Counted from the stretch's first letter, positions 3,102 to 18,160 are shown. The stretch: DNA of 32,443 nt from Candidatus Liptonbacteria bacterium RIFCSPLOWO2_01_FULL_56_20 (GCA_001818655.1 MHLC01000022.1:2319-34761), one strand, 5' to 3'. Numbers and translations are program-made. Notes: generated by a model from the letters alone, not told the origin.

Positions 3102-3283
3102 GCGCCCATAGCTCAGTGGTAGAGCGTCCCGTTCACATCCGCCTGCCAAAGCGCGCGTTTAGCTCAGTGGTAGAGCGCTTCGTTCACATCGAAGAGGTCG
3201 CTGGTTCGATCCCAGCAACGCGCACCATAAAAGCGGCGGGCAGGTCGGGAAGGCCTGAAGCTCGATCTTTCATGGGCGCACCA
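3102..3283 (+). tRNA. Outer split tRNA-Val(CAC)-like gene: 5' part 3102-3137, 3' part 3245-3283, with a 107-nt intervening sequence containing another tRNA-Val
   Basis: Acceptor GCGCCCA/TGGGCGC+ACCA; D arm GCTC/GAGC; anticodon stem TCCCG/CGGGA; loop TT-CAC-A|T; T stem TGAAG/TTTCA with non-canonical loop CTCGATC. Confidence 0.75.
3153..3227 (+). tRNA. tRNA-Val(CAC), intact, nested inside the outer tRNA-Val
   Basis: GCGCGTT/AACGCGC acceptor; CTTCG/CGAAG anticodon stem; CAC at 3185-3187; GCTGG-TTCGATC-CCAGC; encoded CCA. Confidence 0.96.
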
Positions 3284-3331
3284 TTCTCTCATTCGCGCGA
3301 ATGGTAGAATGAGGAGAATGATCAGGCGACC

Positions 3332-3871
3332 ATGAAACGCGCGCTTATTTTCGGTACAATAGTGGTGGCGGGCATCCTTGTGTACGCCGCCGCGTTGCAG
3401 AAACCGGCTGCGCCATCGCAACAACAAACCATGCTGCTCACAAGTTCCGCGTTCGAACAGAACGCATACATCCCCAAGAAATTCAGCTGCGAGGGATGGA
3501 ACATTAACCCTGAGCTTTTGATCCAGGGCGTGCCTCAAGAGGCAAAGAGCTTGACATTGATCATGGATGACCCGGACGCGCCACGGGGCACGTTCACGCA
3601 CTGGCTCGTGTGGAACATTGATCCCACGACGACTGTGATAAAAGAAGAGAGTGTGCCTCCGGGCAGTATCGAGGGCGCAAACGACGCGGGCAAGATTGGC
3701 TACATTGGCCCATGTCCGCCTCCGGGCGCGCCGCACCGCTATTTTTTCAAACTGTACGCACTTGATGTTTTACTTGACCTTAAATCAGGCGCAAGCAAAA
3801 CCGAACTTGAAGCCGCGCTCCGCAGCCACAGTGAGGCGCAGACAGAGCTTGTCGGCCTTTACGCGCGATAA
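3332..3871 (+). CDS. YbhB/YbcL family (PEBP/Raf kinase inhibitor-like) protein with N-terminal signal/anchor
   Basis: DPDAP..FTHWLVWNI...GYIGPCPPPG..HRYFFKLYALD. Confidence 0.92.
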   Translation: MKRALIFGTIVVAGILVYAAALQKPAAPSQQQTMLLTSSAFEQNAYIPKKFSCEGWNINPELLIQGVPQEAKSLTLIMDDPDAPRGTFTHWLVWNIDPTTTVIKEESVPPGSIEGANDAGKIGYIGPCPPPGAPHRYFFKLYALDVLLDLKSGASKTELEAALRSHSEAQTELVGLYAR

Positions 3872-3881
3872 CGAGCGCGCG

Positions 3882-5561
3882 TCAAGGCGTTAACGCGCCT
3901 TCGTAAACGGTGTTGATCCGTTGCACGACTACGATCTCAAAGCCCTTGGAAGTGTTTTCTGCGCCTGACGTGAGCGTCACGGTGATGGGATACGTGCCCG
4001 GGGTCGTGGGGAAGCCCGAGATGGTCGCGGGCGCGCGGCACGGCGCCATAATGCAGACCGCTGGCGTGAGGGTGAGCCCCGGCGGGAGATTGCCCGCGGT
4101 GATGCTCCAGACATAGGTGCCTGCGCCGCCCTGGGCAACGAGCGCCGCCTCATATTTTTCGCCTTGGACGACCTGCGGGAGGGATTCCGTGTTGATCATA
4201 AAGAACTGGAGCGGCATAACCTGGAAGTTCGCCGTATTGCTCGTCCCGTTCTTGTTCGTGACCGTGATGGGATAGCTTCCCGGCGCAAGCACGACTTGAG
4301 CGCAGGACGCGAATGGCGCGCAGGGCGTTGCGGGGATCGCGAACGTAAGCGTTTTCCCGTCCGGAGACGAGAGGTCCTGGACCGCGCGCGTGACGCCGGC
4401 GAAGCTTATATGATTCTGCGTCGGCGTGAATCCGAATCCGCCAAGGGTCACTTGCGTGCCTACGCTTCCCGAGCCGGGCGTGATCGTGGTGATGATGGGG
4501 ATCGCCTCCACCTCGTTTTTGTCGCGTATGCGGATGCTTCCGACATCGGTGATCATGTTATTTATCTCGTCCAGTACGCCTTCTATGGTCACGAAAATGT
4601 CCGTTTTGAGGGTGCTTGTGACGGTGACGAGCTTTGCGTCGCGCGTCCGGATCACAAAACTGCCGTCTCCGGCGTTGATCTGCGTGATAATGCCGTCAAT
4701 GGACTGCTTTTCCCTGGCGATTTTCGGCTGGGAAAGGTCGCGGATCACTTCGGCCTCAACGACTTGGGCGTTCGCATCCAATGCCGATCCGTAAATATTC
4801 AGCTTGTCGCCGATCGCGATGCTGTTGAACGCGATATTCCCCCGGTTGCGGTCAAGGATGATGGTCTTTGACGTGACCCGCACCTCGTATTTTCGTACAA
4901 AATCGAGCTGTGGCCGCACGAGCGGGGGAACCGCGATGCTCCGTCCCGCGGCGCTCTCGTCGAGCGAGCGGACGCCCAAGGGGCAGGGCGCCTCTGTTTT
5001 CGCGCCGTTCCAGAAGCCGTAGCACGGATACTCCGGCCGCTGGATCACAATGAGCGTCTGCGGGCTTCCGGCTGCGACGCCGATCACTTCGGTGTTATCG
5101 AGCTGGATAAAGGTTCGCTCAGGCGGCTTTGAAAGATTGCGCACGATGAGCCCGCGGATCGAACCATCGGTGTTATAGAAGCCGTAGACGTTGATGAGAT
5201 CGCCTACCGAAAAATCCGAAAACGCCGCGGCTTGACGTTGTTTCAAGAGAAGGATGGTTTCTGCAGTGATCTGGATGCGGTAGCCAACTTCCCGGGGCGA
5301 GGGGCATATGGCAGATTCGCCTCGCACCGCGCTTTCGCTCGGGAACCGCAGACAGCTTACCGAAGCTGCGAGCGTGGCCGCGGCAAAGATTTCCGCAGGC
5401 AGTCCGCCCGAAGAGATCTGCGTGATCCGCATCGACGGAAACTGAAGAATATCTCCTTCGTCAATAATTGCAGGCGCAGCATATGCGTTATTCCCTGCGG
5501 AATAAGGGATAATGACAAGCGCTGCCGCAGCCGCGATGATGAGTAATAAGTTCTTCGCCAT
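3882..5561 (-). CDS. Secreted/surface protein with repeated beta-rich (DUF5666-like) units, an IPT/TIG-like domain and a C-terminal putative Ig domain
   Basis: Signal peptide MAKNLLLIIAAAAAL. Two repeats of IxxxTxxL..FsdxxVGDxINVYG. PIITTITPGSGSVGTQVTLGGFGF (IPT). WSITAGNLPPGLTL..ISGFPTTPGTYPITV (Ig). Start moved to ATG 5561. Confidence 0.75.
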   Translation of the reverse strand: MAKNLLLIIAAAAALVIIPYSAGNNAYAAPAIIDEGDILQFPSMRITQISSGGLPAEIFAAATLAASVSCLRFPSESAVRGESAICPSPREVGYRIQITAETILLLKQRQAAAFSDFSVGDLINVYGFYNTDGSIRGLIVRNLSKPPERTFIQLDNTEVIGVAAGSPQTLIVIQRPEYPCYGFWNGAKTEAPCPLGVRSLDESAAGRSIAVPPLVRPQLDFVRKYEVRVTSKTIILDRNRGNIAFNSIAIGDKLNIYGSALDANAQVVEAEVIRDLSQPKIAREKQSIDGIITQINAGDGSFVIRTRDAKLVTVTSTLKTDIFVTIEGVLDEINNMITDVGSIRIRDKNEVEAIPIITTITPGSGSVGTQVTLGGFGFTPTQNHISFAGVTRAVQDLSSPDGKTLTFAIPATPCAPFASCAQVVLAPGSYPITVTNKNGTSNTANFQVMPLQFFMINTESLPQVVQGEKYEAALVAQGGAGTYVWSITAGNLPPGLTLTPAVCIMAPCRAPATISGFPTTPGTYPITVTLTSGAENTSKGFEIVVVQRINTVYEGALTP

Positions 5562-5827
5562 GGTCACAGTGCATATTATACTACGAATCTCTGCACGAGG
5601 CGTTACATAGTCGCACTGCGCTATCCACAGGGTATCTTGACGCAGGTCTGGATCAACGCTATTGTTAGCCAATTCCCATGCAGGCGTTTAACTTCGCAAC
5701 CAAGGATTTTGCAGCCGCACTTCGCACGTGCTGGCTGCTTTTCGGCATTTACTTTATTGGCCGACCAACGGATCAGGAGGCGACTACCGCAATGTTCTAG
5801 AGAAAAGTATTAACAAGAACGAACTTG

Positions 5828-5855
5828 CAAGAGCCCCTGATCCGAGGGGCTCTTG
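5828..5855. repeat. 11-bp-stem hairpin in the divergent intergenic region
   Basis: CAAGAGCCCCT-GATCCG-AGGGGCTCTTG. Confidence 0.65.
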
Positions 5856-5951
5856 TGTTATGCGGCCTGAAAATCGTCCGGCTGCGCAGGTGCAGATGAA
5901 CGATTTTCAGATCGCATGGTGCGGTCTGAAGCACATTAGTGAGGGGGCGTT

Positions 5952-6518
5952 ATGCAGCAGGGCAGGACAACTCCGGGAGAGCCGGCGATTGAGCGCATCT
6001 TTGCGTTCAAGGGAACAGTAGGGGAGCGAATTCTTGAAGAGATTGCTCATCCTACGGCGCAGCCGATGCGCCACAAGCGGGTTTTCGGAACGATGTGGGT
6101 CCGAAAGTGGGGAGCAGACGGTCATGAGGCTTGCAGAGGCATCGTGGTCGTAGGCACCACACGTATCCCGCTCATGCTTGAGAAAGGCATGGCGGTTGCG
6201 GACGAGCCGAGGACGCTCGTTATCCAGCAGGTGCCGGGATGCAGGCATTCGCTCAAGCCCGCGGTAAACGGCAGCCGGGCAACTATTCTTGAGGTCGGAA
6301 GCGAACTGAACGAGAATCGGCTTAAGGGATTTGCCTGTCAAGTTGTTGCGGCCTTCGTGATCCACGGCTTTTGCTGGAAAGATCGCAACGGCAAGGAGCT
6401 GCAAGAGCCCTATGGCGACAGGGTTGACCCTGTTGCGAAAGCAAGGCGAAAGGCAAAGAAAAAGGCGAAGCAGCCACAAAAGCCTGACAGCTACGACCGC
6501 TACCTCGGCATTTGGTAG
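5952..6518 (+). CDS. Hypothetical protein (188 aa, basic C-terminus)
   Basis: GAGGGGG SD-like sequence before the ATG; fills the gap; no recognised motif. Confidence 0.6.
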   Translation: MQQGRTTPGEPAIERIFAFKGTVGERILEEIAHPTAQPMRHKRVFGTMWVRKWGADGHEACRGIVVVGTTRIPLMLEKGMAVADEPRTLVIQQVPGCRHSLKPAVNGSRATILEVGSELNENRLKGFACQVVAAFVIHGFCWKDRNGKELQEPYGDRVDPVAKARRKAKKKAKQPQKPDSYDRYLGIW

Positions 6519-6749
6519 GCCTTTGGTAGCGCTGTCCTTTCTGCTCTTGCCGCCCAAGTTTACGGGGAATCTGCTGCTCTGGCCCAAGCCGGAGAATTGC
6601 CGGTTCCCCGCTTCTTTTTTCAAAACATTTGGGTTAGATTGGTAAAGATGAAAATCCTGCGCACGAGGTTTAAAAAAGACCGGGTTCGTCCGTTGTAATA
6701 AAACCGGCCGAGTACCGCAGGATAAACAGGTTTTTCGGAACGTGAAGCT

Positions 6750-7745
6750 ATGAAACTATCTATCGGTATTGTGGGGCTGCCGAATGTGGGCAAGTCAACT
6801 CTGTTCAACCTCTTGACCAAGCAGAGCGTTTTGGCGGCCAATTACCCGTTCGCGACCATTGACCCGAACGTGGGCGTGGTCGCCGTGCCGGACGAGCGGG
6901 TGGATACGCTCGCAGAGATGAGCAAGTCCAAAAAGAAAATCCCCGCGGTCGTGGAGTTCTATGACATCGCAGGACTGGTGAAGGGCGCTTACAAGGGCGA
7001 GGGGCTTGGCAACCAGTTCCTCGCGCACATCCGTGAAGCGCAGGCGATCGTGGTCGTACTGCGCGTATTCAATGACCCGGGCGTGGTTCATGTGGAGAGT
7101 ACCATAGATCCTCTGCGGGACATGGGAACCATAAATACGGAATTGGCGCTCAAAGACCTGGAAACCGTGAACAAGCGTTTGGATAAAGCAGAGGGCGAGG
7201 CGCGAACCGGCGATAAAAAGGCGATAAAAAATATGGAGGTGCTTAAAACGGTCAAAGCAGAACTGGAAAAAGGGAATTTGATCCATCAATTCGGCGAAGA
7301 GGAAATCGTGCGGGAGATGCAGCTTTTGACCTCAAAAAAACAGCTGTATCTCCTGAACGGCGATGAGGCCGACGTGAGCGCAAGATTGGAAGCGGAGATA
7401 AAAAAACTGGGCGCGGATTATTTGGTCGCGAATTTGGCAGCGATTAAGGATCTGGGCGAGCTCATAAAAAAAGCGTATGCGATCCTGGATCTTATAAGCT
7501 TTTTAACTACCGGCGAAGACGAAACCAGGGCGTGGACTATCAAGCGCGGCACCAGGGCCCCGGAAGCGGCCGGCGTGATCCATACTGATTTTGAGAAGAA
7601 TTTCATCCGCGCCGAGGTCGTGAATTGGAAAAAGCTGCTTGAGTCAGGCGGATGGAGTCAGGCCAAGCAAAAAGGGCTGATACGGCTCGAAGGTAAGGAG
7701 TATGTGGTGCAGGACGGGGACGTGATGGTGGTGAGGCACGGGTAG
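6750..7745 (+). CDS. ychF: Ribosome-binding ATPase YchF
   Basis: GIVGLPNVGKSTLFN, ANYPFATIDPN, DIAGLV, GEGLGNQFL; TGS domain GVIHTDFEKNFIRAEV. Confidence 0.97.
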   Translation: MKLSIGIVGLPNVGKSTLFNLLTKQSVLAANYPFATIDPNVGVVAVPDERVDTLAEMSKSKKKIPAVVEFYDIAGLVKGAYKGEGLGNQFLAHIREAQAIVVVLRVFNDPGVVHVESTIDPLRDMGTINTELALKDLETVNKRLDKAEGEARTGDKKAIKNMEVLKTVKAELEKGNLIHQFGEEEIVREMQLLTSKKQLYLLNGDEADVSARLEAEIKKLGADYLVANLAAIKDLGELIKKAYAILDLISFLTTGEDETRAWTIKRGTRAPEAAGVIHTDFEKNFIRAEVVNWKKLLESGGWSQAKQKGLIRLEGKEYVVQDGDVMVVRHG

Positions 7746-7760
7746 TTGACGTGCGCCGAG

Positions 7761-8369
7761 CTAAGACCGCCGTTCCAGCGCACTACCCAGCGTTTCGTCG
7801 TCCGCAAATTCTATCTCGCCGCCCGTGGGCAATCCTCGCCCCAGGCGGCTTACTGTTTTCGCGAGCGGCGCAAGTTCTTTCATAAGGAGCGAGGCGTTGA
7901 AATCTCCCGCAGAAGTAGGGTTGAACGCGAGGATTACCTCTTTTGCCTGCCCGCCCAATTCTTTTTCAATGAAGCGCTTGAGATTCTGCAGGCGCAGTTT
8001 TTGCCATTCTTCCAAAATGCCCGTCTTCGGAATTATCCCGAGGATGCAGTAGCGGCCGGTGTATTTTCCCGTGTTCTCAAGCGAGAGGAGGTCAGTCTCT
8101 TTTTCCACGATCATGATCACGCCAGGGTCGCGGCTCGGGCTCTCGCAGATATGGCAGAGACGGCCGGGATTTTGATGGACGAAAAAGCAGCGCTCGCAGA
8201 TCTTCACCCGGCCGAGCTCGTCAAGGTCGCGCGCAAGGCCGTGGATGGCATCGCCGCCCTGCGCGACAAGATAAAACGCCAAGCGGGTCGCCTGGCGGGG
8301 GCCGATCGAGGGAAGCTCGGCCAAGCGCTCAATAAGTCTTTTCGCCGACTCCGGCAGGTTCGCTTTCAT
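7761..8369 (-). CDS. recR: Recombination protein RecR
   Basis: LPSIGPRQATRLAFYL HhH; CERC..CHIC zinc finger; Toprim; RLGRGLPTGGEIEFAD. Confidence 0.95.
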   Translation of the reverse strand: MKANLPESAKRLIERLAELPSIGPRQATRLAFYLVAQGGDAIHGLARDLDELGRVKICERCFFVHQNPGRLCHICESPSRDPGVIMIVEKETDLLSLENTGKYTGRYCILGIIPKTGILEEWQKLRLQNLKRFIEKELGGQAKEVILAFNPTSAGDFNASLLMKELAPLAKTVSRLGRGLPTGGEIEFADDETLGSALERRS

Positions 8370-9723
8370 ATTCTGAATACTTTTTGTCTATGCTGCGGAA
8401 GGTAACGCGTTCTGGATCGAACATAAGGTTCACGCTTCCCAGGGGGCCGTTGCGGTGTTTCCCGATGTTGATCTGCGCTACGTTCTGCTCTTCAAGCGGC
8501 ACGTCTTGCTTGTCGCGGTCTTTGCGGTAGATGAAGAGCACCACGTCCGCATCCTGTTCAATGGCGCCGGATTCCCGGAGGTCGGAGAGTTTGGGTATTT
8601 TGCTGTCCCGTTGGTCAACGGCGCGCGAGAGCTGGGATACGGCGAGCACCGGCACTTGGAGTTCGCGCGAGAGCGCTTTTAGGCCCCGCGAGATCTCGGT
8701 TACCTGCTGGACCATATTGTCCGAGTTGCGGCGCGGGAGGATGAGTTGGAGGTAGTCCACGACGATGAGGCCAAGTCCGTGCTCTATCTGGAGCCGGCGC
8801 GCCATTGAGCGCATCTGCATGATATTCGGGGATGGCGTGTCGTCGATGAATATGGGCGCCTGCGAGAGGCGGTCGAGCGTGTGCTGGATCATTTCGAACT
8901 CCGCGTCGTTCGTGATGCGGCCGGTGCGGAGCCGCCACAGGGGCACGCCTGACTCTGCCGCGATCAGGCGGTCGATGACCTGCTCGCGCGACATTTCGAT
9001 CGAGAAGATGCCGACCGGCACATGGGCCTTGAGGGCGGCGTTCCGCGCGATGTCTAAGGCGAGCGTGGTCTTGCCGAGTGATGGCCGCGCTCCGATGACG
9101 ATAAGGTCCGATTTCTGGAGGCCCGAGAGGAGGCTGTCTAAACCGTCGAAACCGGTTGGCACGCCGCGGAGCGCACCCTTGTGCGCGTGGAGCTTTTCTA
9201 TCCGCTCGTAGGCGTTCCGCAGCTCCTCTCGGAGCGGGACGAAGTTTTGCGGGATGGATTTTTGCGAGATAGAAAGTATCTTCTGCTCCATCTCGTCCAT
9301 CAGGTCGTCGAACTCCTTGGCCGGCTCAAAAGCGTTCTCCGTGATCTCCGCGGACGCGCGGATGAGGTCGCGGAGCACTTTTTTCTCTTTCACGATCTTC
9401 GCGAAGTGGTCGACGTGCGATGACGTGGCGACGCGGTTCGTGAGATCGGCGAGGTAGCCAGAGCCGCCGACGTCGGCGAGGACACCCTTTTCCGTGAGCC
9501 GGTTCGTGAGGGTGAGGAGGTCAACGGGCTGGCGCTTCTCGTAGAGATCGAGGATGCTCTCGTAGATCTTTTCGTGCGCCGGGGTGTAAAAATCTTCGGG
9601 CGCAAGCAGGTCCGCGACTTTGATGACCGCGTCTTTGTCTATCAAAAGCGAACCCAGGACCGATTGTTCGGCCTCGATGTTCTGCGGGGGGAGCCTAAGC
9701 GTGTCTTTTTTCTTTGGCGGCAT
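8329..9723 (-). CDS. dnaB: Replicative DNA helicase
   Basis: PPQNIEAEQSVLG; ARPSLGKT Walker A; VDYLQL; DLRESGAIEQDAD; KHRNGP. Confidence 0.98.
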   Translation of the reverse strand: MPPKKKDTLRLPPQNIEAEQSVLGSLLIDKDAVIKVADLLAPEDFYTPAHEKIYESILDLYEKRQPVDLLTLTNRLTEKGVLADVGGSGYLADLTNRVATSSHVDHFAKIVKEKKVLRDLIRASAEITENAFEPAKEFDDLMDEMEQKILSISQKSIPQNFVPLREELRNAYERIEKLHAHKGALRGVPTGFDGLDSLLSGLQKSDLIVIGARPSLGKTTLALDIARNAALKAHVPVGIFSIEMSREQVIDRLIAAESGVPLWRLRTGRITNDAEFEMIQHTLDRLSQAPIFIDDTPSPNIMQMRSMARRLQIEHGLGLIVVDYLQLILPRRNSDNMVQQVTEISRGLKALSRELQVPVLAVSQLSRAVDQRDSKIPKLSDLRESGAIEQDADVVLFIYRKDRDKQDVPLEEQNVAQINIGKHRNGPLGSVNLMFDPERVTFRSIDKKYSEYESEPAGVGEKTY

Positions 9724-11146: not shown

Positions 11147-11153
11147 GTTGACC

Positions 11154-11498: not shown

Positions 11499-11575
11499 AT
11501 GTCATCCCTCCAGCTGGTTATGTTGTAGCAGTAAAATCGCTGGGAGGCAATAGAGTTTGCGTAATTCTGCAGGTA

Positions 11576-11598
11576 TGGTATAATGTAGAAAGGAGGTG
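11576..11598 (+). promoter_or_regulatory. Extended -10 promoter and strong SD
   Basis: TGGTATAAT followed by AAAGGAGGTG before ATG 11603. Confidence 0.65.
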
Positions 11599-11602
11599 CG
11601 GA

Positions 11603-11941
11603 ATGAAATTGACAGCAGTAAGACGGTGGTTCCTGATTGGGCTCGGCTTGTCGCTCGTTCTGGGCGTCGGTGCCATCTATTCGGAATCCGAGGGGTACAT
11701 GCGGTTGCCGATGCTCCTGTATCTGATGACCACGGTTGCAGCCAGTTTTTTCGCGTTCATCGCCAGTCGGACCGGACAGGGCCTCGCTGATTTCTTCGAC
11801 GGGGTTCATCGTCCGATGGGGCGGGGCCGCAACGCGGATCGCGACTCTTTTCCGCGTTCAAGCAGGTTCTGCCTGGGCTACGCTCTTCCGCTGGGGGCAT
11901 TCATCGGCGGGAAGATCGTCCTGGCCTATATCTACCCATAG
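11603..11941 (+). CDS. Small membrane protein (about 3 TM segments)
   Basis: Hydrophobic segments; promoter, SD and terminator all present. Confidence 0.7.
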   Translation: MKLTAVRRWFLIGLGLSLVLGVGAIYSESEGYMRLPMLLYLMTTVAASFFAFIASRTGQGLADFFDGVHRPMGRGRNADRDSFPRSSRFCLGYALPLGAFIGGKIVLAYIYP

Positions 11942-11965
11942 GCCACAGATGTCATGGGCAAAGAG

Positions 11966-12003
11966 AGCCCGTCCTTGCAAGTTAAGACGGGCTTTTCTGT
12001 TTT
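11966..12003 (+). terminator. Rho-independent terminator
   Basis: AGCCCGTC..GACGGGCT followed by TTTCTGTTTT. Confidence 0.65.
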
Positions 12004-12016
12004 ATTCTATACCCGC

Positions 12017-12060
12017 GTCTTCTTAACAAATCCCGCGGCCGCGGGATTTGTTAAGAAGAC
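12017..12060. repeat. Perfect 44-bp palindrome, copy 1
   Basis: GTCTTCTTAACAAATCCCGCGG|CCGCGGGATTTGTTAAGAAGAC. Confidence 0.95.
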
Positions 12061-12241
12061 AGGATCTATAGTTATCAAGAATTTTGACGTAGAATTAATA
12101 ATCTATGGCTTGCGGCCGCTCTTTGCATATTAAAGCATGTTGATTAGCATTCTTGACCTATCCGACAGGCCCCTCGGCCGCGGGCTCGGGACCGAACGGC
12201 TCAAGGTCTGCGACCGCCCTGATTTTCACTAAGACCATTGA

Positions 12242-12280
12242 TTAGCGGTCTTGACACTCGACTGCTAATCGCCCTATACT
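12242..12280 (+). promoter_or_regulatory. CIRCE operator overlapping a sigma70 promoter of the hrcA operon
   Basis: TTAGCGGTC-N9-GACTGCTAA at 12242-12268 (consensus TTAGCACTC-N9-GAGTGCTAA). TTGACA at 12251-12256 lies in the spacer; TATACT at 12275-12280. Confidence 0.85.
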
Positions 12281-12289
12281 TGACCCATT

Positions 12290-12967
12290 ATGGAGCCGCG
12301 CACCACGGGCATCCTCAAGGCCGTTATCAGCGAATTCATAGAGAGCGGAGAGCCGGTGAGTTCGGAATGGCTCTACGAGCACCATGATTTTGGCATCAAG
12401 CCCGCCATGATCCGGTTGGAATTGGGCGGCCTCACGGATAAGGGCTACCTGGTGCAGCCGCATACTGCGGCAGGGCGGGTCCCGTCCGACAAAGGGCTCG
12501 CATTTTTCGCGAAAAGCGCGATAGAAGAGGATGCGCCCGCATGCGGCGAAGAGCTTCTTGGCCTTTTCCGCGAGCAGGCGTGGCCGGAATTCCTTTCGGA
12601 ATTCTCTTCGGAGCTTGATATCTTGGGTGCGGCGTCGGTGTTCCCGGAGCGCGCGGCGTATAAAAGCATGCTCACTAACCTGGTTGACCATTTTGACTGG
12701 CCGCCTTCGGAGATCAGGGACCTGGTCCGTGATTTTGAGAATCTGGATGAGCGGCTTGGGAAGATGGGAGGCGCGTTTCAGAGCGACATCCAGGCGTTTA
12801 TCGGCCGTAAGAGTCCGGTCACGAAGAGCGAACACCTCGCGGTCATCGCCGGGAGCTATGGCGTGGACGGACACAGGGTGTTCGTGTGCGCGATCGGGCC
12901 GAAGAGGATGGATTATAAGAAAACCGCAAAGGTCATGAAGGGATTAAAAATAGCGAGTAGAAAGTAG
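12290..12967 (+). CDS. hrcA: Heat-inducible transcription repressor HrcA (short form)
   Basis: ILKAVISEFIESGEPVSS..PAMIRLEL..GYLVQPHTAAGRVPSDKG..IGPKRMDY; CIRCE upstream. Confidence 0.9.
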   Translation: MEPRTTGILKAVISEFIESGEPVSSEWLYEHHDFGIKPAMIRLELGGLTDKGYLVQPHTAAGRVPSDKGLAFFAKSAIEEDAPACGEELLGLFREQAWPEFLSEFSSELDILGAASVFPERAAYKSMLTNLVDHFDWPPSEIRDLVRDFENLDERLGKMGGAFQSDIQAFIGRKSPVTKSEHLAVIAGSYGVDGHRVFVCAIGPKRMDYKKTAKVMKGLKIASRK

Positions 12968-12985
12968 CGAGTAGGCAGGAAGCAG
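12951..12985 (+). repeat. TAGNNAG heptamer array that supplies the hrcA stop codon
   Basis: TAGCGAG TAGAAAG TAGCGAG TAGGCAG GAAGCAG. Confidence 0.75.
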
Positions 12986-12992
12986 GAAAAAC

Positions 12993-13508
12993 ATGAACGA
13001 AGAACAAAAACAAAATAGCAATAAAGAAGAAGCGGCAAAACCAGAGATGAGCGAACTTCAGAAGTGCGAAGCGCAGAAAAATGAGTATCTCGCGGGCTGG
13101 CAGCGCGCGAAAGCCGACCTCATCAACTATAAAAAAGAGGAGTTGCAGCGGCTTGAGGAGTTTGCCAAGTACCACGGCGCTGAATTCATGCGGGAGCTCA
13201 TTGCCGTGCTTGACGCATTTGATCTGGGGCTCGCAGCGCTTGAGAAGCAGGGATCCGTAGAGAAAGGGATCTATATGATCCGGGCGCAGATCGAGGACAT
13301 ATTGAAGAGCCACGGGCTTACGAAAATTCCCATAAGGGTCGGCGATCCGTTCGACCCCGCGGTCGCGGAAGCGATCGCCGAGGCAGAGTCAGGAGAACCG
13401 CCGGGAACCGTTCTCGAGGAGATCGAACCCGGGTACCGGCTCCACGATAAGATCCTTAGGCCAGCGCGAGTAAAAATATCAAAAGGTCAACCAGCAAGTC
13501 ATCAATAA
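12993..13508 (+). CDS. grpE: Nucleotide exchange factor GrpE
   Basis: WQRAKADLINYKK..FDPAVAEA..GYRLHDKILRPARV. Confidence 0.96.
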   Translation: MNEEQKQNSNKEEAAKPEMSELQKCEAQKNEYLAGWQRAKADLINYKKEELQRLEEFAKYHGAEFMRELIAVLDAFDLGLAALEKQGSVEKGIYMIRAQIEDILKSHGLTKIPIRVGDPFDPAVAEAIAEAESGEPPGTVLEEIEPGYRLHDKILRPARVKISKGQPASHQ

Positions 13509-13517
13509 CACAACACC

Positions 13518-15452
13518 ATGCCAAAAATTTTAGGGATAGATCTGGGAACTACGAATTCTGCGGTCGCGGTCACGGACAGCGGCGAGCCGCGCATTTTAGA
13601 GACCGTTGAAGGCAATCGCACCATGCCTTCTATCGTCGCGGTGAGCAAGGCAGGGGAACGCCTCGTGGGGCTTTTGGCCAAGCGGCAAGCCATCACCAAT
13701 CCCAAGAACACGATCTTTTCCGTGAAGCGCCTGATCGGCCGCAAGTGGAGCGACCCAGAGGTTCAGCGGGACAAGGGGTGGCTACCCTATGACATAGTGG
13801 AAGGTCCGAACAGCAGCGTGCGGGTGAAAATGTCCGTCGGAGGCGGATCCGCCTCTGGCGGAGGCGACTATTCCTCGGAAGAGATCTCCGCGTTCATCCT
13901 GGGCAAGCTCAAGGCGGATGCGGAGGCGAAACTCGGCGAAAAAGTGGAAGAAGCGGTCATTACCGTGCCCGCGTATTTCGACGATTCACAGCGGCAGGCG
14001 ACCAAGAATGCCGGGGAGATCGCTGGATTCAAAGTGAGGAGGATCTTGAACGAGCCGACCGCGGCAGCGCTCGCCTACGGGTTTGGGACAGGGAAACAAC
14101 TCCGACGCTCGCAAGGCGAGGCCGGAGCCCCAGGCGAAGCGTCGGGAAAGAACGAAAAGATCGTGGTGTACGACTTTGGCGGCGGCACGTTCGACATCTC
14201 GGTTTTGGAGGTTGGCGACGACACGGTGGAGGTCAAGGCGACCGGTGGCGACACGCATTTGGGCGGCGACGATTTCGACAAGCGTGTGATCGAGTATCTT
14301 GTTGCCGAATACAAAAAACAGGAGGGCATTGACATCTCAAAGGATCCGCTCGCGCTGCAGCGCCTCAAAGAGGCGGCCGAGCGCGCGAAACACGAGCTCT
14401 CGACCGCGGTCGAAACAGAGATCAATCTTCCGTATGTGAGCTCGGACGCGTCCGGCCCCAAGCATTTTCTGATGAAGCTTACGCGGGCTAAGCTTGAATC
14501 CCTGGTGAAGGACTACATTGACCGTTCGATCGAGCTCACGCGCGCGACCGTTACCTTGCCCCAGCCAAAAGGCGCGGGGTTCAAACTTCCGGAGATCAAT
14601 GAAGTGATCCTCGTCGGCGGCCAGACGCGCATGCCGGCGATGGTGGAGGCGGTCAAGAACCTTTTCGGCAAGGAGCCGCACAAGGGCATCAACCCGGACG
14701 AAGTGGTGGCGATCGGAGCCGCGGTCCAGGCAGGGATACTGCAGGGCGACGTGAAAGACATCCTGCTCTTGGACGTCACGCCTCTTGCCTTGAGCATCGA
14801 GACCTTGGGCGGCGTGGCTACGCCAATGATACAGAAGAATACTACGGTCCCTACGGCGAAGACCCAGATCTTCTCGACCGCGGGCGACAGTCAGACGTCG
14901 GTCGAGGTGCACGTGCTGCAGGGCGAACGCCCCATGGCGCAGGACAACAAGACGCTTGCGCGGTTCATGCTGGACGGCATTCCGCCATCGCCGCGCGGCG
15001 TGCCGCAGATCGAGGTGACATTTGACATCGACGCGAACGGCATCCTGAACGTGTCTGCGAAAGACAAGGCCACGGGTAAATCGCAGTCCGTGCGCATCGA
15101 GGCATCCACCGCGCTTTCAAAGGAAGAAGTCGAGCGCCTGCGGCGCGAAGCCGCGGAGCATGCGTCCGAGGATACAGCAAAACGCGAGACCGCAGAGTTG
15201 CGTAACCAGGCAGAAAGCCTGATCTATGTGGCGGAAAAAGCGCTTCGCGAAGCAGGAGACAAGGTAAGCGAAGACGTGAAAAAATCAATAAACGAGAAGA
15301 TCGAACAGCTGAAACAAGTAAAAGACGGCGGCGCAAAAGAAGCGATACAGGGCGCGATCGCAGGGTTGAACGCCGAAATTCAAAAAATAGGCCAGGCGTT
15401 CTATAATAAGGATCAAGATGGCGGGGCTAATTCAGCACCAGAGTCTCATTGA
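13518..15452 (+). CDS. dnaK: Chaperone DnaK carrying two in-frame palindromic insertions
   Basis: [48 protein letters not shown]. Confidence 0.98.
13833..13862. repeat. 30-bp palindromic element in frame in dnaK ([10 protein letters not shown])
   Basis: TCCGTCGGAGGCGGA|TCCGCCTCTGGCGGA; related copies at 16767-16796 and 18114-18143. Confidence 0.85.
14097..14147. repeat. About 51-bp palindromic element in frame in dnaK ([17 protein letters not shown])
   Basis: TCCGACGCT/AGCGTCGGG termini with inner hairpin CTCGC-AAG-GCGAG; similar termini at 28683-28764. Confidence 0.75.
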
Positions 15453-16479
15453 GCAGGCCGCGCGTCGCGAGGTCGTCCGGCCGAAGAAGTTTTACGCGCC
15501 GCTTGTTCTTGACGCGCTCGTCGTCGTCTCTGCGTTCGGCCTCGCGGGCGCGTATAAGGGTTACCTTGCGGGCGGGGCGCCGCTCGGCGCGTTGCTTGCC
15601 GCGCTCGCGCTATTTGCCGTTCTCTCGGTGCTCGCGATGCTTCTTACCAAGGCGTTTCGCCGGAGGCTCGTCGTGCTCGCGATCGAAGTCGTCGCGCTAT
15701 TCCTGCCGTTCTACGACACCCCGGTCGCTTACCCGTTCCAATTTTTGACGCTCACTGCGCTTGCCGCATTCATCGTCCTCGTGTTCGGGGAATACATGGG
15801 CGCGCGGGCGCTCGACAATACGATCAAGATCCAGTTCTTTCGGGTCATCCAGCCGCAGCTTTCACGTCTTATTACGGCGATGGTGCTCTGCGGGGTGATC
15901 CTGTATCTGCCGTACTGGGGCGCGCAGGGAAGCTTCCTTTCTCTGGAGAATTTTAACCGCATGTTTGATTTCGGGATCGGCCCGGTCAAGCAGTTCTATC
16001 CCGAGATAACCTTCACTGGTTCTTTCGGAGATTTTGCGGATGCCATGACGCGTTTACAGCTGAAGAACGACGCGAGGTTCCGCCTGCTCTCGCCAGCAGA
16101 ACAGGAGCGTACGATCCGAGATACCGCAGAACAGCTCCGCGTGAGCCTCTCCGCGAGCCTCAAGTCGGACATTTCGGCAGACAAGCCACTGGTCGTCGTG
16201 TTCTACGATTTTCTGGTGAGCATGCTCGCGCAGTGGCGCGAGACGTTCGGGAACCAATTTCTCTTCGCGTGGGCGGCGATGCTGTTTTTGATCGCGAGAA
16301 GTCTCGGCGTGGTGTTCTACTGGGCAAGCGCGGTCATCGCGTTCTTCGTATATCAGGCGCTCATTGCGGCTAATTTCATCCGCGTGACTGGCGAGACGGG
16401 CGTGCACGAAGTGCTTGACTATTATGCGCCTTACCACAACAATAACGGGCGGATAGACGAAGGGCGGCGGGAGCCATAA
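15418..16479 (+). CDS. Multi-pass membrane protein between dnaK and dnaJ (start uncertain)
   Basis: About 5 N-terminal and 2 C-terminal hydrophobic helices with a soluble loop between; fills the operon gap. Confidence 0.75.
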
Positions 16480-16499
16480 CGGCTTAGGCCGGTTGTTTT

Positions 16500-17621
16500 A
16501 TGCCAAAAGATTACTACAAAATTCTAGGGGTGGAGCGCGGCGCATCCGAGGAAGAGATAAAAAGAGCTTACCGGAAGCTCGCGCACAAGCACCATCCCGA
16601 CAAAACTGGCGGCGACGGGAAAAAATTCAAGGAACTGAACGAGGCGTACCAAGTGCTCTCGGACAAGCAGAAGCGGGCGCAGTATGACCGATTCGGCACC
16701 GCAGAGCCGTTCATGGGGTTCGGCGGCGGCGGCACCGGGCCGTTCTCCGGATTTGATTTCGGGTTCTCCGCAGGAGGCGGGCCCTCTTCGGGCTGGGAAG
16801 GGTTTGACGGCCAGGGATTCCCCGATATGGGCGGTTTGGGTGAGATCTTTGATTCGTTCTTTGAGGGATTGGGAGTGCGCCCGCGCAGGCCCGTATACCG
16901 GCGCGGGTCAGATATCGAGGTGACGCTCGAGATATCGCTTGAAGAAGCGTTCCGCGGCGCGACCAAACCGCTTGCGGTAACGACGCTCACACGCTGCGAG
17001 CGCTGCAAGGGGCAGGGAGGCGACCCTGCCGCGGGGTCAAAAGCGTGCGCGGCGTGCAACGGCCGCGGCGAGGTGCGGGAGGAGCGGCAGACGTTTTTCG
17101 GCAGTTTCGCGCAGGTAAGAACCTGTAGCGCGTGCCGCGGCGCGGGTCAAATCCCGGTGAAGGTCTGCAGCGCGTGCGAGGGGAGCGGCAGGATCTCCGG
17201 CGCGCGCAGCGTGCAGATAGACATCGTGCCGGGCATTGAAGACGGCCAGATCGTAAAGCTAAGCGGTATGGGGGAGGCCGGCGAGCGGGGGACTGGCGCA
17301 GGCGGCCTCTACGTACGCGTGAAGATCCACCCGCACCCGGTGTTCGTGCGCAAAGGAAGCGACCTTATCGTTACCAAGGAACTTAAAGTGGTGGGTCTTT
17401 TGCTCGGTCGGAAAATAGAGGTGCCGACCATAAGCGGCGGGAAAGCGTACGTAGAAATTCCCGCGCATTTCAACCTTAAAGAGAACCTTCGTATCCCCGG
17501 AGAAGGCATGCCGCGGTTCGGCAGTTTTGGCAGGGGAGATCTTTTTGTGAGTTTTATCATTAAGGCGCCCAAGAAAGTGGACGCAAAAATCGCAAAACTG
17601 CTGGAGGAAATGGAGGGATAA
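16500..17621 (+). CDS. dnaJ: Chaperone DnaJ
   Basis: J domain with HPD, G/F region and four CxxCxGxG motifs. Confidence 0.98.
16767..16796. repeat. Degenerate 30-bp element in frame in the dnaJ G/F region ([10 protein letters not shown])
   Basis: TCCGCAGGAGGCGGGCCCTCTTCGGGCTGG resembles the dnaK element in its left half and in length. Confidence 0.5.
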
Positions 17622-17644
17622 GGGCAGACGCGCCATCTTTTTGT

Positions 17645-17682
17645 TTCTTAACAAATTCCGCGGCCGCGGAATTTGTTAAGAA
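17645..17682. repeat. Perfect 38-bp palindrome, copy 2
   Basis: TTCTTAACAAATTCCGCGG|CCGCGGAATTTGTTAAGAA. Confidence 0.95.
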
Positions 17683-17795
17683 GGTGAATCGGTTTGAACC
17701 TGACGGCGAAGAACCGAGGGCCGCCGCGAGCAAAAGCAGCGGCCCCTTAAAATTTGAAAATTCGTTTATAAGCATATAAAATACGCGTGGAATAT

Positions 17796-18047
17796 GCCCC
17801 GGTAGCTCAGTCTGGTAGAGCAGCTCCCTTTAGGCTTACGCCTCACGGGTTCGCTCATCGAAAATACAAACAGTCTTAATTGTCCGCTTGGTGCCCCCTT
17901 AGCTCAGTCTGGTAGAGCAGCTCCCTTTTAAGGAGACGGTCGTAGGTTCAAATCCTACAGGGGGCACCAAGCGGGGGATATGTTTGTATTCTTTCTTCGC
18001 TGCCCGTGATAAGGAGATGGTCCTAGGTTCGAATCCTAGCCGGGGCA
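17796..18047 (+). tRNA. Outer split tRNA-Lys(TTT)-like gene: 5' part 17796-17831, 3' part 18010-18047, with a 178-nt intervening hairpin containing another tRNA-Lys
   Basis: Acceptor GCCCCGG/CCGGGGC+A; D arm GCTC-AGTCTGGTA-GAGC; GCTCC-CTTT|TAA-GGAGA; CTAGG-TTCGAAT-CCTAG; no encoded CCA. Confidence 0.85.
17893..17969 (+). tRNA. tRNA-Lys(TTT), intact, nested inside the outer tRNA-Lys
   Basis: GCCCCCT/AGGGGGC acceptor; loop CTTTTAA (TTT at 17927-17929); GTAGG-TTCAAAT-CCTAC; encoded CCA. Confidence 0.96.
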
Positions 18048-18091
18048 CAAAGGCGAAGTTTGCTTATTCGTTTTCGTCTCACTGCCATTAC

Positions 18092-18160
18092 TAAGCAGAT
18101 GGTCCCAGGTTCTCGTGCCGGAGGCAGATCCGCCTCCGGCGGAAAATCCTGGCCGGGGGA
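18092..18160 (+). pseudogene. Extra tRNA-Lys 3' half with a palindromic element inserted in the T loop
   Basis: TAA-GCAGA-TGGTC-CCAGG-TTC[insert]AAAT-CCTGG-CCGGGGG-A, compared with the outer 3' part TAA-GGAGA-TGGTC-CTAGG-TTCGAAT-CCTAG-CCGGGGC-A. Confidence 0.8.

What the first reader, a model, noticed from the sequence alone, without database searches (positions are those of the whole stretch)
3102..18160. Recurrent 'matryoshka' tRNAs: an intact tRNA nested in the anticodon loop of a split tRNA of the same type, at two independent loci
Seen: both tRNA loci in this window (Val at 3102-3283, Lys at 17796-18047) have the layout 5' half - paired arm - complete same-type tRNA with CCA - paired arm - 3' half. 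Outer and inner copies differ by compensatory stem changes, so they are not a simple duplication or a collapsed repeat. The two inserts are unrelated in sequence but alike in architecture. Established: characterised bacterial tRNA introns are mainly self-splicing group I (e.g. cyanobacterial tRNA-Leu UAA), and archaeal ones use bulge-helix-bulge motifs. Neither is evident here. Inference: this may be an undescribed tRNA-in-tRNA intron/processing system (RNase P and 3' trimming release the inner tRNA; outer halves are ligated or stay paired), a tRNA-carrying mini mobile element that targets cognate tRNA genes and complements the gene it breaks, or a decoy against anticodon nucleases or tRNA-targeting integrases.
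Basis: partly seen in the sequence, partly recalled or inferred. Interest (0 to 1): 0.95.

Follow-up and report, generated by a model that had tools for sequence, protein, structure and literature searches.

The report
tRNA genes nested inside broken tRNA genes
Two tRNA genes in this small bacterial genome each sit, whole, inside the anticodon loop of a second, interrupted gene for the same tRNA, most likely because a small mobile insert breaks a tRNA gene while bringing its own working copy.

Summary
Val(CAC) 3153-3227 and Lys(UUU) 17893-17969 each lie between the two halves of a second same-type tRNA gene. Deleting 107 nt (3139-3245) or 178 nt (17832-18009) in silico restores a canonical 75-nt tRNA.

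- **Own genome:** about 9 of 41 tRNA loci (648 kb, CPR-like) have same-type pieces on both sides, and 6 more on one side.
- **Relatives:** nested Lys occurs in 6 of the 17 related genomes whose Lys locus I read. It also occurs in metagenome contigs, one of them three layers deep.
- **Arms:** the arms flanking the inner tRNA covary (91% of cells paired, 22 of 31 pairs with double changes).
- **Transcription:** the only promoter-like sites lie upstream of the outer 5' halves.
- **Splicing enzymes:** no RtcB or splicing endonuclease was found.
- **State of the outer copies:** 13 of 22 are further broken.
- **Linked genes:** elsewhere, the same layout often holds a minimal GIY-YIG nuclease gene.

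Best reading (about 0.5): a mobile, self-complementing insert that carries a replacement tRNA. The outer halves are the disrupted older gene, and the inner tRNA is released from a nested precursor. Mobility and processing are inferred, not shown. No RNA data were available. Seven literature searches found no description of this layout.

The parts
3062..3091 (+). promoter-like site (TTCACA-18-TATGAT) 11 nt upstream of the outer Val gene
   Evidence: 10 of 12 consensus matches. No such site inside the insert. A consensus match only.
3102..3138 (+). outer tRNA-Val(CAC) 5' half: acceptor 5' strand, D arm, anticodon stem 5' strand and the whole anticodon loop TTCACAT
3139..3152 (+). left arm of the Val insert (ccgcctgcc aaagc); pairs with the right arm
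   Evidence: Same arms in G021 (L147).
3153..3227 (+). inner, intact tRNA-Val(CAC) with encoded CCA
   Evidence: 72.2 bits. 99% identical to the un-nested Val gene of G019.
3228..3245 (+). right arm of the Val insert (taaaagc ggcgggcagg t)
3246..3283 (+). outer tRNA-Val 3' half: anticodon stem 3' strand, variable region, T arm (TGAAG CTCGATC TTTCA), acceptor 3' strand, ACCA
   Evidence: The T loop has C in place of the usual T54 (position name recalled).
17754..17782 (+). promoter-like site (TTGAAA-17-TAAAAT) 14 nt upstream of the outer Lys gene
   Evidence: 10 of 12 consensus matches. None inside the insert.
17796..17831 (+). outer tRNA-Lys(UUU) 5' half, ending inside the anticodon (CTTT|)
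17832..17843 (+). small junction hairpin (aggc ttac gcct) at the left edge of the Lys insert
   Evidence: A hairpin of variable sequence stands at this place in all 15 aligned loci.
17844..17892 (+). left arm of the Lys insert: helix strand P1 (cacggg), conserved loop TTCGCTC, helix strands P2 and P3
17893..17969 (+). inner, intact tRNA-Lys(UUU) with encoded CCA
   Evidence: 70.3 bits
17970..18009 (+). right arm of the Lys insert: P3 and P2 complements, conserved loop TCGCTG, P1 complement (cccgtg)
18010..18047 (+). outer tRNA-Lys 3' half (TAA of the anticodon loop, anticodon stem 3' strand, T arm CTAGG/CCTAG, acceptor CCGGGGC, A); no encoded CCA
18075..18161 (+). remnant of an older, outermost layer. 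Right-arm-like motif (cgtctcactgccattac, 18075-18091), then a third Lys 3' half (18092-18112 and 18144-18161, T stem CCAGG/CCTGG) split in its T loop by a GC hairpin (18113-18143)
   Evidence: (the hairpin recurs near other tRNA genes)

Best explanation
Each locus is an older tRNA gene (the outer halves) interrupted in or next to its anticodon loop by a short insert. The insert consists of two mutually complementary arms around a complete, working tRNA gene of the same type.

The insert is most likely a mobile, self-complementing cassette. It can settle in an essential single-copy tRNA gene because it carries the replacement. It probably spreads by break-and-repair (homing-like) copying, with the conserved tRNA halves serving as homology arms. 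The small GIY-YIG nucleases found in sister cassettes are the likely source of the break. The Val and Lys inserts of this window would then be forms without their own nuclease gene. Repeated insertion, or unequal recombination between the half copies, stacks layers.

Transcription starts at the old promoter upstream of the outer 5' half. The precursor folds as a nested cloverleaf, and the paired arms keep the inner halves together. RNase P, RNase III and 3' trimming with CCA repair then release the inner tRNA. The outer halves are by-products that decay over evolutionary time.

Shown: the anatomy, the recurrence, the arm covariation, the promoter position, the lack of known splicing enzymes, the decay of outer copies, and the link of GIY-YIG genes with tRNA genes. 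Inferred: mobility, the nuclease's role, and every RNA processing step.
For: **Anatomy**
- One exact deletion restores the outer gene at both loci.
- There is no target duplication at the Lys junctions and at most 1 nt of ambiguity at Val.

**Recurrence in the own genome**
- By my reading, 9 of 41 tRNA loci have same-type pieces on both sides: Val CAC, Lys UUU, Pro UGG, Ala UGC, Asp, Glu CUC, Gln CUG, Tyr, Ser GGA.
- Six more have a piece on one side.
- In 8 of 39 testable tRNAs the leader/trailer duplex is stronger than 99% of mismatched controls.

**Recurrence elsewhere**
- Nested Lys occurs in 6 of the 17 related genomes whose Lys locus I read.
- Nested Val(CAC) occurs in 2 of 6.
- All 5 CPR-labelled hits among 80 stored loci of a motif scan are nested tRNAs, two of them Ile(GAU).
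- All 9 metagenome hits are nested Lys.

**Gain and loss at one syntenic place**
- The dnaJ-tRNA-Lys(-secD) neighbourhood is shared by nested and un-nested genomes.
- G019 keeps the arms but only a decayed outer remnant.

**Layers**
- L192 has two [5' half + arm] units and three [arm + 3' half] units.
- This window has a third Lys 3' half. Its three layers carry three different paired T stems, each seen as a natural variant in relatives.

**Inner against outer stems**
- In the six loci that one search placed correctly (G000 Lys, Pro, Ala and Asp; G021 and G018 Val) I count 24 compensatory pair differences, 1 one-sided and 3 broken.
- Val of this window, read by hand, adds 7 compensatory and 1 one-sided.
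- That is the pattern of two separately functional tRNA lineages, not of a decaying duplicate.

**Outer copies are not kept as tRNA genes**
- 13 of 22 cannot be restored by one deletion because of extra hairpin inserts or decay.

**Nuclease link**
- The genome has 8 GIY-YIG ORFs. Three lie between an outer piece and an intact tRNA (Gln, Tyr, Arg CCG).
- In relatives, 20 of 30 fetched GIY-YIG loci have a tRNA within 135 nt. In 13 the ORF lies 4-56 nt upstream on the same strand, often with a partial same-type copy beyond it.
- Precedent: phage SegB, a GIY-YIG homing endonuclease, is widely linked with tRNA genes and drives local duplication of a tRNA segment (PMC13096335, passages read; PMC2330249, abstract in the listing).

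**Processing**
- Promoter-like sites lie only upstream of the outer halves.
- An RNase III gene and a CCA-adding-type enzyme gene are present, and there is an RNase P RNA-like hit.
Against: - No nuclease gene, transposase or integrase lies in or next to the Val and Lys inserts. The conserved Lys/Ile arm motif was not seen beside any GIY-YIG ORF in the 30 loci searched.
- The GIY-YIG proteins are bare catalytic domains of about 80 aa with no evident DNA-recognition domain. Site-specific cleavage by them is unproven.
- No empty and filled alleles were seen within one population (one search was uninformative).
- At the syntenic Val locus the un-nested genes of relatives resemble this genome's inner copy (99% to G019, 97% to G012), not the outer one. 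If the outer copy were simply the vertically inherited resident, the reverse would be expected.
- All stems of the outer Val and Lys genes still pair. This needs either a recent insertion or selection on the outer halves.
- Several loci have identical inner and outer copies (G004 Lys-CUU, L097, L191, L192, L198). This fits local duplication or gene conversion as well as it fits homing.
- Non-Watson-Crick cells in the arms are 13 G.U against 23 A.C. The pairing carries no signature of selection on the sense RNA.
- Why the arms must be complementary, and what the conserved internal loop (TTCGCTC / TCGCTG) does, is not explained by mobility alone.
Confidence: 0.5

Rival explanations
1. Local, non-mobile origin. 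Breaks or slippage inside a tRNA gene, perhaps made by the GIY-YIG nucleases as with phage SegB, are repaired with misaligned copies. This makes nested or tandem partial duplicates in place, and no cassette moves between genomes.
For: Inner and outer copies are identical or nearly so at G004 Lys-CUU, L097, L191, L192 and L198. L192's layers are near-identical repeats. SegB-driven tandem amplification of a tRNA segment is a shown precedent (PMC13096335).
Against: Tandem duplication gives A-B-A-B, not A-[A-B]-B with complementary arms. One arm family with a conserved 18-nt motif stands in Lys(UUU), Lys(CUU) and Ile(GAU) genes of differently labelled CPR lineages. At 7 loci inner and outer differ by 31 compensatory pair changes (24 counted, 7 by hand for Val). 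A young local duplicate would not show this.
Confidence: 0.15
2. The outer halves and arms are a selected RNA scaffold. They pair with each other so that they cannot mispair with the inner tRNA's halves, or they guide its processing. Their stems have drifted by compensatory change away from the inner copy for that reason.
For: The whole unit is probably one transcript. The arms covary: 91.1% of cells paired against 71.3% in shuffles, with 0 of 500 shuffles as high, and 22 of 31 pairs with double changes. Outer stems stay paired while their sequence departs from the family-typical inner copy. The Val arms are shared by G000 and G021, while the flanks show no similarity.
Against: 13 of 22 outer copies carry further inserts or broken stems. 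The outer 3' half is gone in L072 and G019. There are more A.C than G.U mismatches in the arms. Many tRNAs of the same genome do without any such scaffold (31 of 39).
Confidence: 0.15
3. A true tRNA intron that holds a tRNA. The outer gene is also expressed: the insert is cut out and the halves are ligated, or work while held together, by a pathway not yet known in bacteria.
For: Exact excision restores a canonical anticodon loop at both window loci and at 9 of 22 loci overall. The outer stems are intact, and outer Ala keeps G3:U70 (the identity rule is recalled). The insert has a conserved two-fold-like internal loop that a dimeric RNA enzyme could read.
Against: RtcB and splicing endonuclease gave 0 hits in the own genome, which is 97.5% complete. 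No Rfam intron or ribozyme matched. Insert positions differ: inside the anticodon in Lys, after position 38 in Val, and in the D or T loop at Tyr and Gln. The Ile 3' junction is not exact (TAAAAGACAG). 13 of 22 outer genes would need several further excisions. The product would only duplicate the inner tRNA.
Confidence: 0.1
4. Scars of integrase-type elements that target tRNA genes, or an assembly artefact.
For: Some loci have only a downstream 3' remnant, as att sites do (Arg UCG and Leu CAG in this genome; G027, G032). Short-read contigs break at these loci.
Against: An upstream 5' half whose acceptor strand pairs with the downstream 3' half, and not with the intact gene, cannot arise from 3'-end integration. 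The genome has one Xer-like recombinase and no Y1 transposase. The layout recurs in many independent assemblies, including a record titled as a complete 888-kb chromosome.
Confidence: 0.05

Closest known systems
Integrative elements (prophages, islands) that insert in tRNA genes and carry a copy of the displaced 3' part
   Same: The target is a tRNA gene, often its anticodon loop. The element brings the sequence needed to keep the tRNA functional, and a displaced remnant of the old gene stays beside it.
   Different: Here the whole tRNA is carried, not just the 3' part. Both halves of the old gene remain and match each other. The insert is only 107-178 bp with no integrase, and its flanks are inverted repeats.
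Free-standing GIY-YIG homing endonucleases of T4-like phages (SegB) in tRNA gene clusters
   Same: A GIY-YIG nuclease gene lies next to tRNA genes, and local duplication of tRNA segments follows (PMC13096335, PMC2330249).
   Different: SegB has a DNA-binding part and makes tandem repeats. The proteins here are bare 80-aa catalytic domains, the product is nested, and the two window loci hold no nuclease gene.
Group I introns in bacterial tRNA anticodon loops, with or without a homing endonuclease gene
   Same: An insertion in the anticodon loop of a tRNA gene that stays harmless. A homing logic uses the conserved exons as homology arms.
   Different: There is no ribozyme core (no Rfam hit). Harmlessness would come from a spare gene copy, not from splicing.
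Archaeal disrupted tRNA genes (bulge-helix-bulge introns, split and permuted tRNAs)
   Same: tRNA halves are separated by sequence whose flanks pair into a helix. Inserts occur at several positions (D loop, anticodon loop, T loop).
   Different: This is a bacterium with no splicing endonuclease or RtcB found. The exon-insert junction is a three-way junction, not a bulge-helix-bulge (by eye). No archaeal intron is known to me to hold a tRNA (recalled, and searches).
Intervening sequences of bacterial 23S rRNA, and the non-intron insertions in CPR rRNA genes
   Same: Helical inserts in loops of an essential structured RNA gene in reduced genomes, cut out by RNase III without ligation. GIY-YIG ORFs occur in non-intron rRNA inserts of CPR (PMC11270868, passages read).
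   Different: A fragmented rRNA still works. A tRNA cut at its anticodon loop would not, and here a full spare gene sits in the insert. That paper does not mention tRNA (0 occurrences).

Membership tests
Group I intron in a tRNA gene | conserved ribozyme core detectable by the Rfam group I model | tested here: not met
   Rfam gathering scan of the window and permissive scan of 17700-18250: only the inner tRNA matched. The Val locus was scanned at gathering threshold only.
Group I intron in a tRNA gene | enough non-tRNA sequence to build the core (recalled: about 200 nt or more) | tested here: not met
   The inserts are 107 and 178 nt, of which 75 and 77 nt are the inner tRNA.
Bulge-helix-bulge (archaeal-type) tRNA intron | splicing endonuclease gene in the genome | tested here: not met
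   PF01974: 0 hits in the own genome, 97.5% complete. The control rings in 4 archaea.
Bulge-helix-bulge (archaeal-type) tRNA intron | RtcB-type ligase gene in the genome | tested here: not met
   PF01139: 0 hits. The control rings in 10 of 14 genomes. Other ligase families were not searched.
Bulge-helix-bulge (archaeal-type) tRNA intron | two 3-nt bulges separated by a 4-bp helix at the exon-intron borders | tested here: inconclusive
   By eye and in the folds the Lys border is a three-way junction with a small hairpin. No dedicated motif search was run.
Integrase-borne element at a tRNA gene | tyrosine or serine recombinase gene beside the tRNA | tested here: not met
   One Phage_integrase hit in the genome, on another contig (C20, 297 aa). 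Serine recombinases were not searched.
Integrase-borne element at a tRNA gene | only the 3' part of the tRNA is repeated, and the intact gene is a host/element hybrid | tested here: not met
   A 5' half is present too, and its acceptor strand pairs with the displaced 3' half, not with the intact gene.
Free-standing GIY-YIG homing endonuclease cassette | GIY-YIG ORF inside or beside the insert | tested here: not met
   No ORF in the Val and Lys inserts of the window. It is met at the sister loci Gln CUG, Tyr and Arg CCG of the genome.
Free-standing GIY-YIG homing endonuclease cassette | the nuclease cuts the insert-free allele and the insert is copied into it | not testable with these tools
   Needs protein and DNA at the bench, or population long reads.
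IS200/IS605-type or MITE-like element | Y1 (HUH) transposase in the genome | tested here: not met
   PF01797: 0 hits.
IS200/IS605-type or MITE-like element | terminal or subterminal inverted repeats or hairpins; target duplication for DDE-type MITEs | tested here: inconclusive
   Complementary arms and a small left-end hairpin are present. There is no target duplication. The arms covary rather than keeping one sequence.
RNase III-excised intervening sequence (as in 23S rRNA) | long helix inserted in a loop, plus an RNase III gene | tested here: met
   The Lys arms form about 30 pairs. There is an RNase III gene on C21. Cleavage itself was not tested.

The most novel reading that the evidence does not exclude
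The nested unit is one gene that yields two tRNAs. After the inner tRNA is cut out, the outer halves are rejoined, or work as a paired two-piece tRNA, by a bacterial pathway that uses neither RtcB nor the archaeal endonuclease. The pathway would be guided by the conserved two-fold-like internal loop of the arms. That would be the first protein-dependent tRNA splicing system in bacteria and the first intron that encodes a tRNA.
Probability: 0.08. Interest if true: 0.95.

Novelty: new variant of a known kind. Interest (0 to 1): 0.8.

Why it matters
Mobile DNA that lands in essential RNA genes is known to stay harmless in two ways. It can splice itself out (group I introns), or it can restore the displaced 3' end (integrative elements). 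Carrying a whole spare gene inside the broken one would be a third solution. Here it is found at up to a third of the tRNA loci of one reduced genome.

It would explain several things:
- why tRNA callers see only the inner genes;
- why assemblies of these organisms break at tRNA loci;
- how tRNA genes can be replaced horizontally in bacteria with single-copy tRNA sets.

It also gives testable substrates for the widespread 80-aa GIY-YIG proteins of unknown function, and for RNase P and RNase III acting on nested precursors. If the outer genes turn out to be expressed, it would open the question of tRNA splicing in bacteria.

Tried and rejected
- **ARAGORN with introns allowed.** It called the outer genes of Lys, Pro, Ala and a Gln hybrid, with wrong anticodons because it assumes a fixed intron position. 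It missed outer Val. I replaced it with the explicit deletion test.
- **First half-copy scan.** It missed diverged outer copies (Asp, Ser GGA). The counts for the genome therefore rest partly on reading by eye.
- **Automated restorability test.** It mislocated the diverged 3' half of Val and gave a false 'no', which I corrected.
- **Stem comparison.** It mislocated halves at loci with extra inserts (G000 Val, G016, G017, G004 Lys-UUU, L048), and 4 loci were skipped by its own filter. I use only the rows that I could check against the printed sequences. The raw total of that call (134 same, 24 compensatory, 8 one-sided, 38 broken) is inflated in 'broken' by these misplacements.
- **Genome-collection scan with the 18-nt arm motif.** Only the 5 CPR-labelled loci among the 80 I scanned were informative.
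- **The same motif over 401 genomes spread evenly over the phylum.** 0 hits. In this exact form the Lys/Ile arm family is not widespread. It was found in 4 of the 24 same-family relatives and in a few other lineages.
- **Sequencing runs.** 20 DNA holders from 14 studies, and no RNA holder listed.
- **Laying four runs.** Logan contigs stop inside both tRNA loci. In X2 the pieces end at 3139 and 17826 and start at 3188 and 18016. No listed piece bridges an insert, and no joint 3138>3246 or 17831>18010 was among the 15 joints shown (55 were not shown). This tells nothing about empty alleles or about expression.
- **Ideas considered and dropped.** The arm motif as an inner promoter: no promoter-like site was found inside the arms. 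The arms as transposon terminal repeats bound by a transposase: the arms covary instead of keeping one sequence, and no transposase was found. Fold-back duplication of the 3' flank, as in G017: better read as a truncated further layer.
- **Papers.** Seven searches found no paper describing a tRNA gene nested in a tRNA gene, or disrupted tRNA genes in CPR bacteria. The library lacks most subscription journals, and supplements were closed.

Full report
**What is there**

ARAGORN and Rfam find two tRNA genes in the window: Val(CAC) 3153-3227 and Lys(UUU) 17893-17969.

- **Val:** outer 5' half 3102-3138 (it holds the whole anticodon loop TTCACAT), left arm 3139-3152, inner gene, right arm 3228-3245, outer 3' half 3246-3283 ending in ACCA.
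- **Lys:** outer 5' half 17796-17831 (it ends inside the anticodon, CTTT), a 12-nt hairpin, left arm to 17892, inner gene, right arm 17970-18009, outer 3' half 18010-18047.

Deleting 3139-3245 (107 nt) or 17832-18009 (178 nt) inside a script gives sequences that ARAGORN calls as 75-nt Val(CAC) and Lys(UUU). The nested cloverleaf is the minimum-energy fold. For Lys, z = -5.65 with 0 of 200 shuffles as good. For Val, z = -2.49 with 2 of 200.

A third Lys 3' half follows at 18092-18161. It is preceded by a degenerate copy of the right-arm motif and split in its T loop by a 31-nt GC hairpin. The three Lys layers have three different paired T stems: GTAGG/CCTAC, CTAGG/CCTAG and CCAGG/CCTGG.

**The organism**

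The window is part of a 648-kb, 30-contig genome that is 97.5% complete. It carries bacterial DnaK, DnaJ and SecD. One relative's public record is labelled Saccharibacteria. The genome is therefore CPR-like.

**How common the layout is**

*In the own genome.* ARAGORN finds 41 tRNAs. Rfam adds only one more hit above threshold, an outer Gln copy.

- From I read same-type pieces on both sides of 9 tRNAs: Val CAC, Lys UUU, Pro UGG, Ala UGC, Asp, Glu CUC, Gln CUG, Tyr, Ser GGA.
- I read a piece on one side of 6 more: Arg UCG, Ile GAU, Arg CCG, Leu CAG, Ala CGC, Val UAC. These counts rest partly on reading by eye.
- An objective proxy: 8 of 39 testable tRNAs have a leader/trailer duplex stronger than 99% of mismatched leader/trailer controls.

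*In 40 relatives of the same family or order.*

- I read the Lys locus in 17 genomes. Both outer halves are recognisable in 6 (G016, G017, G021, G034, G011, and G004 at two loci).
- One more is ambiguous because of masked bases (G006).
- Two have a 3' remnant only (G027, G032).
- One has arms plus a decayed 5' remnant (G019).
- Seven have nothing.
- Val(CAC) is nested in 2 of 6 genomes read. G021 has the same arms as here, and G018 has other arms. It is un-nested in G019, G012, G009 and G014.

**One insert family**

The Lys inserts share a fixed architecture:

1. exon ending in CTTT;
2. a small hairpin of variable sequence;
3. helix P1;
4. a conserved internal loop (TTCGCTC on the left strand, TCGCTG on the right);
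5. helix P2;
6. helix P3, which continues the inner acceptor stem through the discriminator;
7. the inner tRNA.

An 18-nt form of the left motif found the following.

- Among the 80 stored loci of a whole-collection scan that was otherwise chance hits, 5 were CPR-labelled loci, and all 5 are nested tRNAs. Two of them are Ile(GAU) genes in records labelled Nomurabacteria.
- With the Lys exon end added to the pattern, there were 9 metagenome loci, all nested Lys.
- An even sample of 401 genomes of the phylum gave 0 exact hits. This family is therefore patchy.

On an alignment of 15 loci, the three helices behave as follows.

| Measure | Observed | Control |
|---|---|---|
| Cells paired | 91.1% | 71.3% in shuffles (0 of 500 as high); 40-48% when partners are slid |
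| Pairs changed on both sides | 22 of 31 | - |

The mismatches are 13 G.U against 23 A.C. The pairing is clearly maintained, but it carries no mark of selection on the sense RNA in particular.

The Val, Pro, Ala and Asp inserts have other arm sequences but the same plan.

**Layers, and inner against outer**

- L192 has two [5' half + left arm] units and three [right arm + 3' half] units around one intact gene.
- In L194 and L197 the inner and outer acceptor stems are quite different.
- In six loci that I could check against the printed sequences (G000 Lys, Pro, Ala, Asp; G021 and G018 Val), one search gives 24 compensatory pair differences, 1 one-sided and 3 broken. Val of this window, by hand, adds 7 compensatory and 1 one-sided.
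- At five other loci the inner and outer copies are identical in these stems.

Some nests therefore hold two diverged, once-functional tRNA lineages, and others hold twins.

**State of the outer copies**

Of 22 nested loci, 9 can be restored to an ARAGORN-valid tRNA of the same anticodon by one deletion (8, plus Val). The other 13 cannot, for these reasons:

- palindromic GC hairpins in the D stem, T loop or variable region;
- larger inserts in the D loop;
- lost anticodons;
- decayed 3' halves.

The Ile 3' junction has two extra A. The GC hairpin type found in the third Lys layer lies within 300 nt of a tRNA in 15 of its 48 genome copies, although such neighbourhoods make up about 4% of the genome.

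**Machinery**

- RtcB and the archaeal-type splicing endonuclease gave 0 hits in the own genome.
- The Y1 transposase gave 0 hits, and there is one Xer-like tyrosine recombinase on another contig.
- Present: an RNase III gene, a CCA-adding-type enzyme gene, and an RNase P RNA-like hit at 40.7 bits, which is below Rfam's threshold.
- RNase Z was not found above its cut-off.
- Promoter-like sites (10 of 12 consensus matches each) end 11 and 14 nt upstream of the outer 5' halves, and none lies inside the inserts. These are consensus matches only.

**The nuclease link**

- The genome has 8 ORFs of about 80-87 aa with a GIY-YIG catalytic domain and nothing else.
- Three lie between an outer tRNA piece and an intact tRNA (Gln CUG, Tyr, Arg CCG). 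At Gln and Tyr the insertion point is in the T loop and the D loop.
- One lies 11 nt upstream of tRNA-Cys.
- One lies in a 16-bp hairpin at the 5' edge of the RNase P RNA-like hit.
- Homologues occur in 33 of 41 genomes searched.
- Of 30 fetched loci, 20 have a tRNA within 135 nt. In 13 the ORF is 4-56 nt upstream on the same strand, several with a partial same-type copy beyond the ORF.
- None of the 30 loci holds the Lys/Ile arm motif. G021, which has nested Lys and Val, gave no hit with this query.

**Reading**

The best account is a self-complementing mobile insert: a tRNA gene between complementary arms that enters a cognate tRNA gene and replaces its function. It spreads by break-and-repair, with the tRNA halves serving as homology. 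Nuclease-bearing and nuclease-free forms both exist.

This account explains:

- the recurrence across loci and genomes;
- the shared family across tRNA isotypes and lineages;
- the precise junctions without target duplication;
- the stacked layers;
- the diverged inner and outer pairs;
- the decay of outer copies.

It leaves open:

- why the arms must pair;
- what the conserved internal loop does;
- who cuts the DNA at the window's loci;
- why the inner copy, not the outer one, resembles the un-nested genes of relatives at the syntenic Val locus.

Three rivals remain alive: local duplication without transfer, a selected RNA scaffold, and true splicing. The last is the weakest on present evidence but cannot be excluded without RNA data.

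**Literature**

Seven full-text searches found nothing on tRNA genes nested in tRNA genes or on disrupted tRNA genes in CPR bacteria.

- The CPR rRNA-insertion paper (PMC11270868, passages read) reports GIY-YIG ORFs in non-intron rRNA inserts and never mentions tRNA.
- The SegB papers give the nearest mechanistic precedent (PMC13096335, passages read; PMC2330249, abstract seen in the listing).
- Supplements were closed and could hold relevant tables.

Noticed in passing
own genome contigs C13 603-845 and 104-310, C21 32910-33158, C12 11617-11877, C15 6631-6855, C22 206-439 (upstream of the window), C26 32235-32456, C11 8282-8527: Eight ORFs of about 80-87 aa that are bare GIY-YIG catalytic domains, nearest solved relatives UPF0213 proteins. 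At least five lie within about 140 nt of a tRNA gene (Gln CUG on both sides, Tyr, Arg CCG, Cys and Thr). Homologues were found in 33 of 41 related genomes.
   Followed up: partly
own genome C11 7786-8545 (locus L200): One GIY-YIG ORF sits in the loop of a perfect 16-bp hairpin whose 3' arm runs straight into GAGGAAAGTCCGG, the start of an RNase P RNA-like hit (RF00010, 40.7 bits, below threshold). These ORFs therefore also sit at other structured-RNA genes.
   Followed up: partly
window 18113-18143; own genome C9 511-544, C13 near 467 and 866, C15 3699-3735 and 4255-4293, C26 20218-20265, C28 20254-20294: A roughly 30-nt GC hairpin (CCGGAGGC..GCCTCCGGCGG type) recurs almost only beside tRNA genes, often between GTTC and RAATCC of a T-loop remnant. 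Of 48 CCGCC-N2-5-GGCGG sites, 15 lie within 300 nt of a tRNA, against about 4% of the genome. A second palindrome (CCTGCCTGCCGGCAGGCAGG type) also splits outer copies.
   Followed up: partly
own genome C12 (upstream of Arg CCG), C10 (upstream of Val GAC), C25 (upstream of Glu CUC), C24 (Ala UGC); L009 (G034): A third kind of insert, 60-90 nt, starting CCCCGAC or GTCCCGA and forming its own hairpins. It sits in the D loop of outer 5' halves.
   Followed up: no
loci L009, L012, L002 against the window 16500-19451; L153 against L149: At the syntenic dnaJ-tRNA-Lys-secD and Val loci the tRNA gene points the opposite way in some relatives while the neighbours keep their order. Inverted-repeat arms could flip the gene.
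   Followed up: no
L191 (metagenome contig), inner tRNA-Lys: The inner gene reads CGTTTAA in its anticodon loop, with G in place of the near-universal U33 (position name recalled), while the outer 5' half keeps CTTT. This is either a sequencing error or a case where the inner copy is damaged.
   Followed up: no
own genome C29 93-165 (minus strand): ARAGORN calls a tRNA-Ile with anticodon UAU, which is uncommon in bacteria (recalled). Only one CAU tRNA was found in the assembly.
   Followed up: no
window 17645-17682 and 12019-12057; own genome C21 39599-39635: A palindromic element of about 38 nt after dnaJ recurs at 95% identity at two other places. It looks like a terminator hairpin.
   Followed up: no
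window 23368-24810: An ORF with TrwB/VirD4-type coupling-protein domains, among large ORFs without Pfam matches (21494-22858, 26440-28197). This may be part of a type IV secretion or conjugation-like cluster.
   Followed up: no
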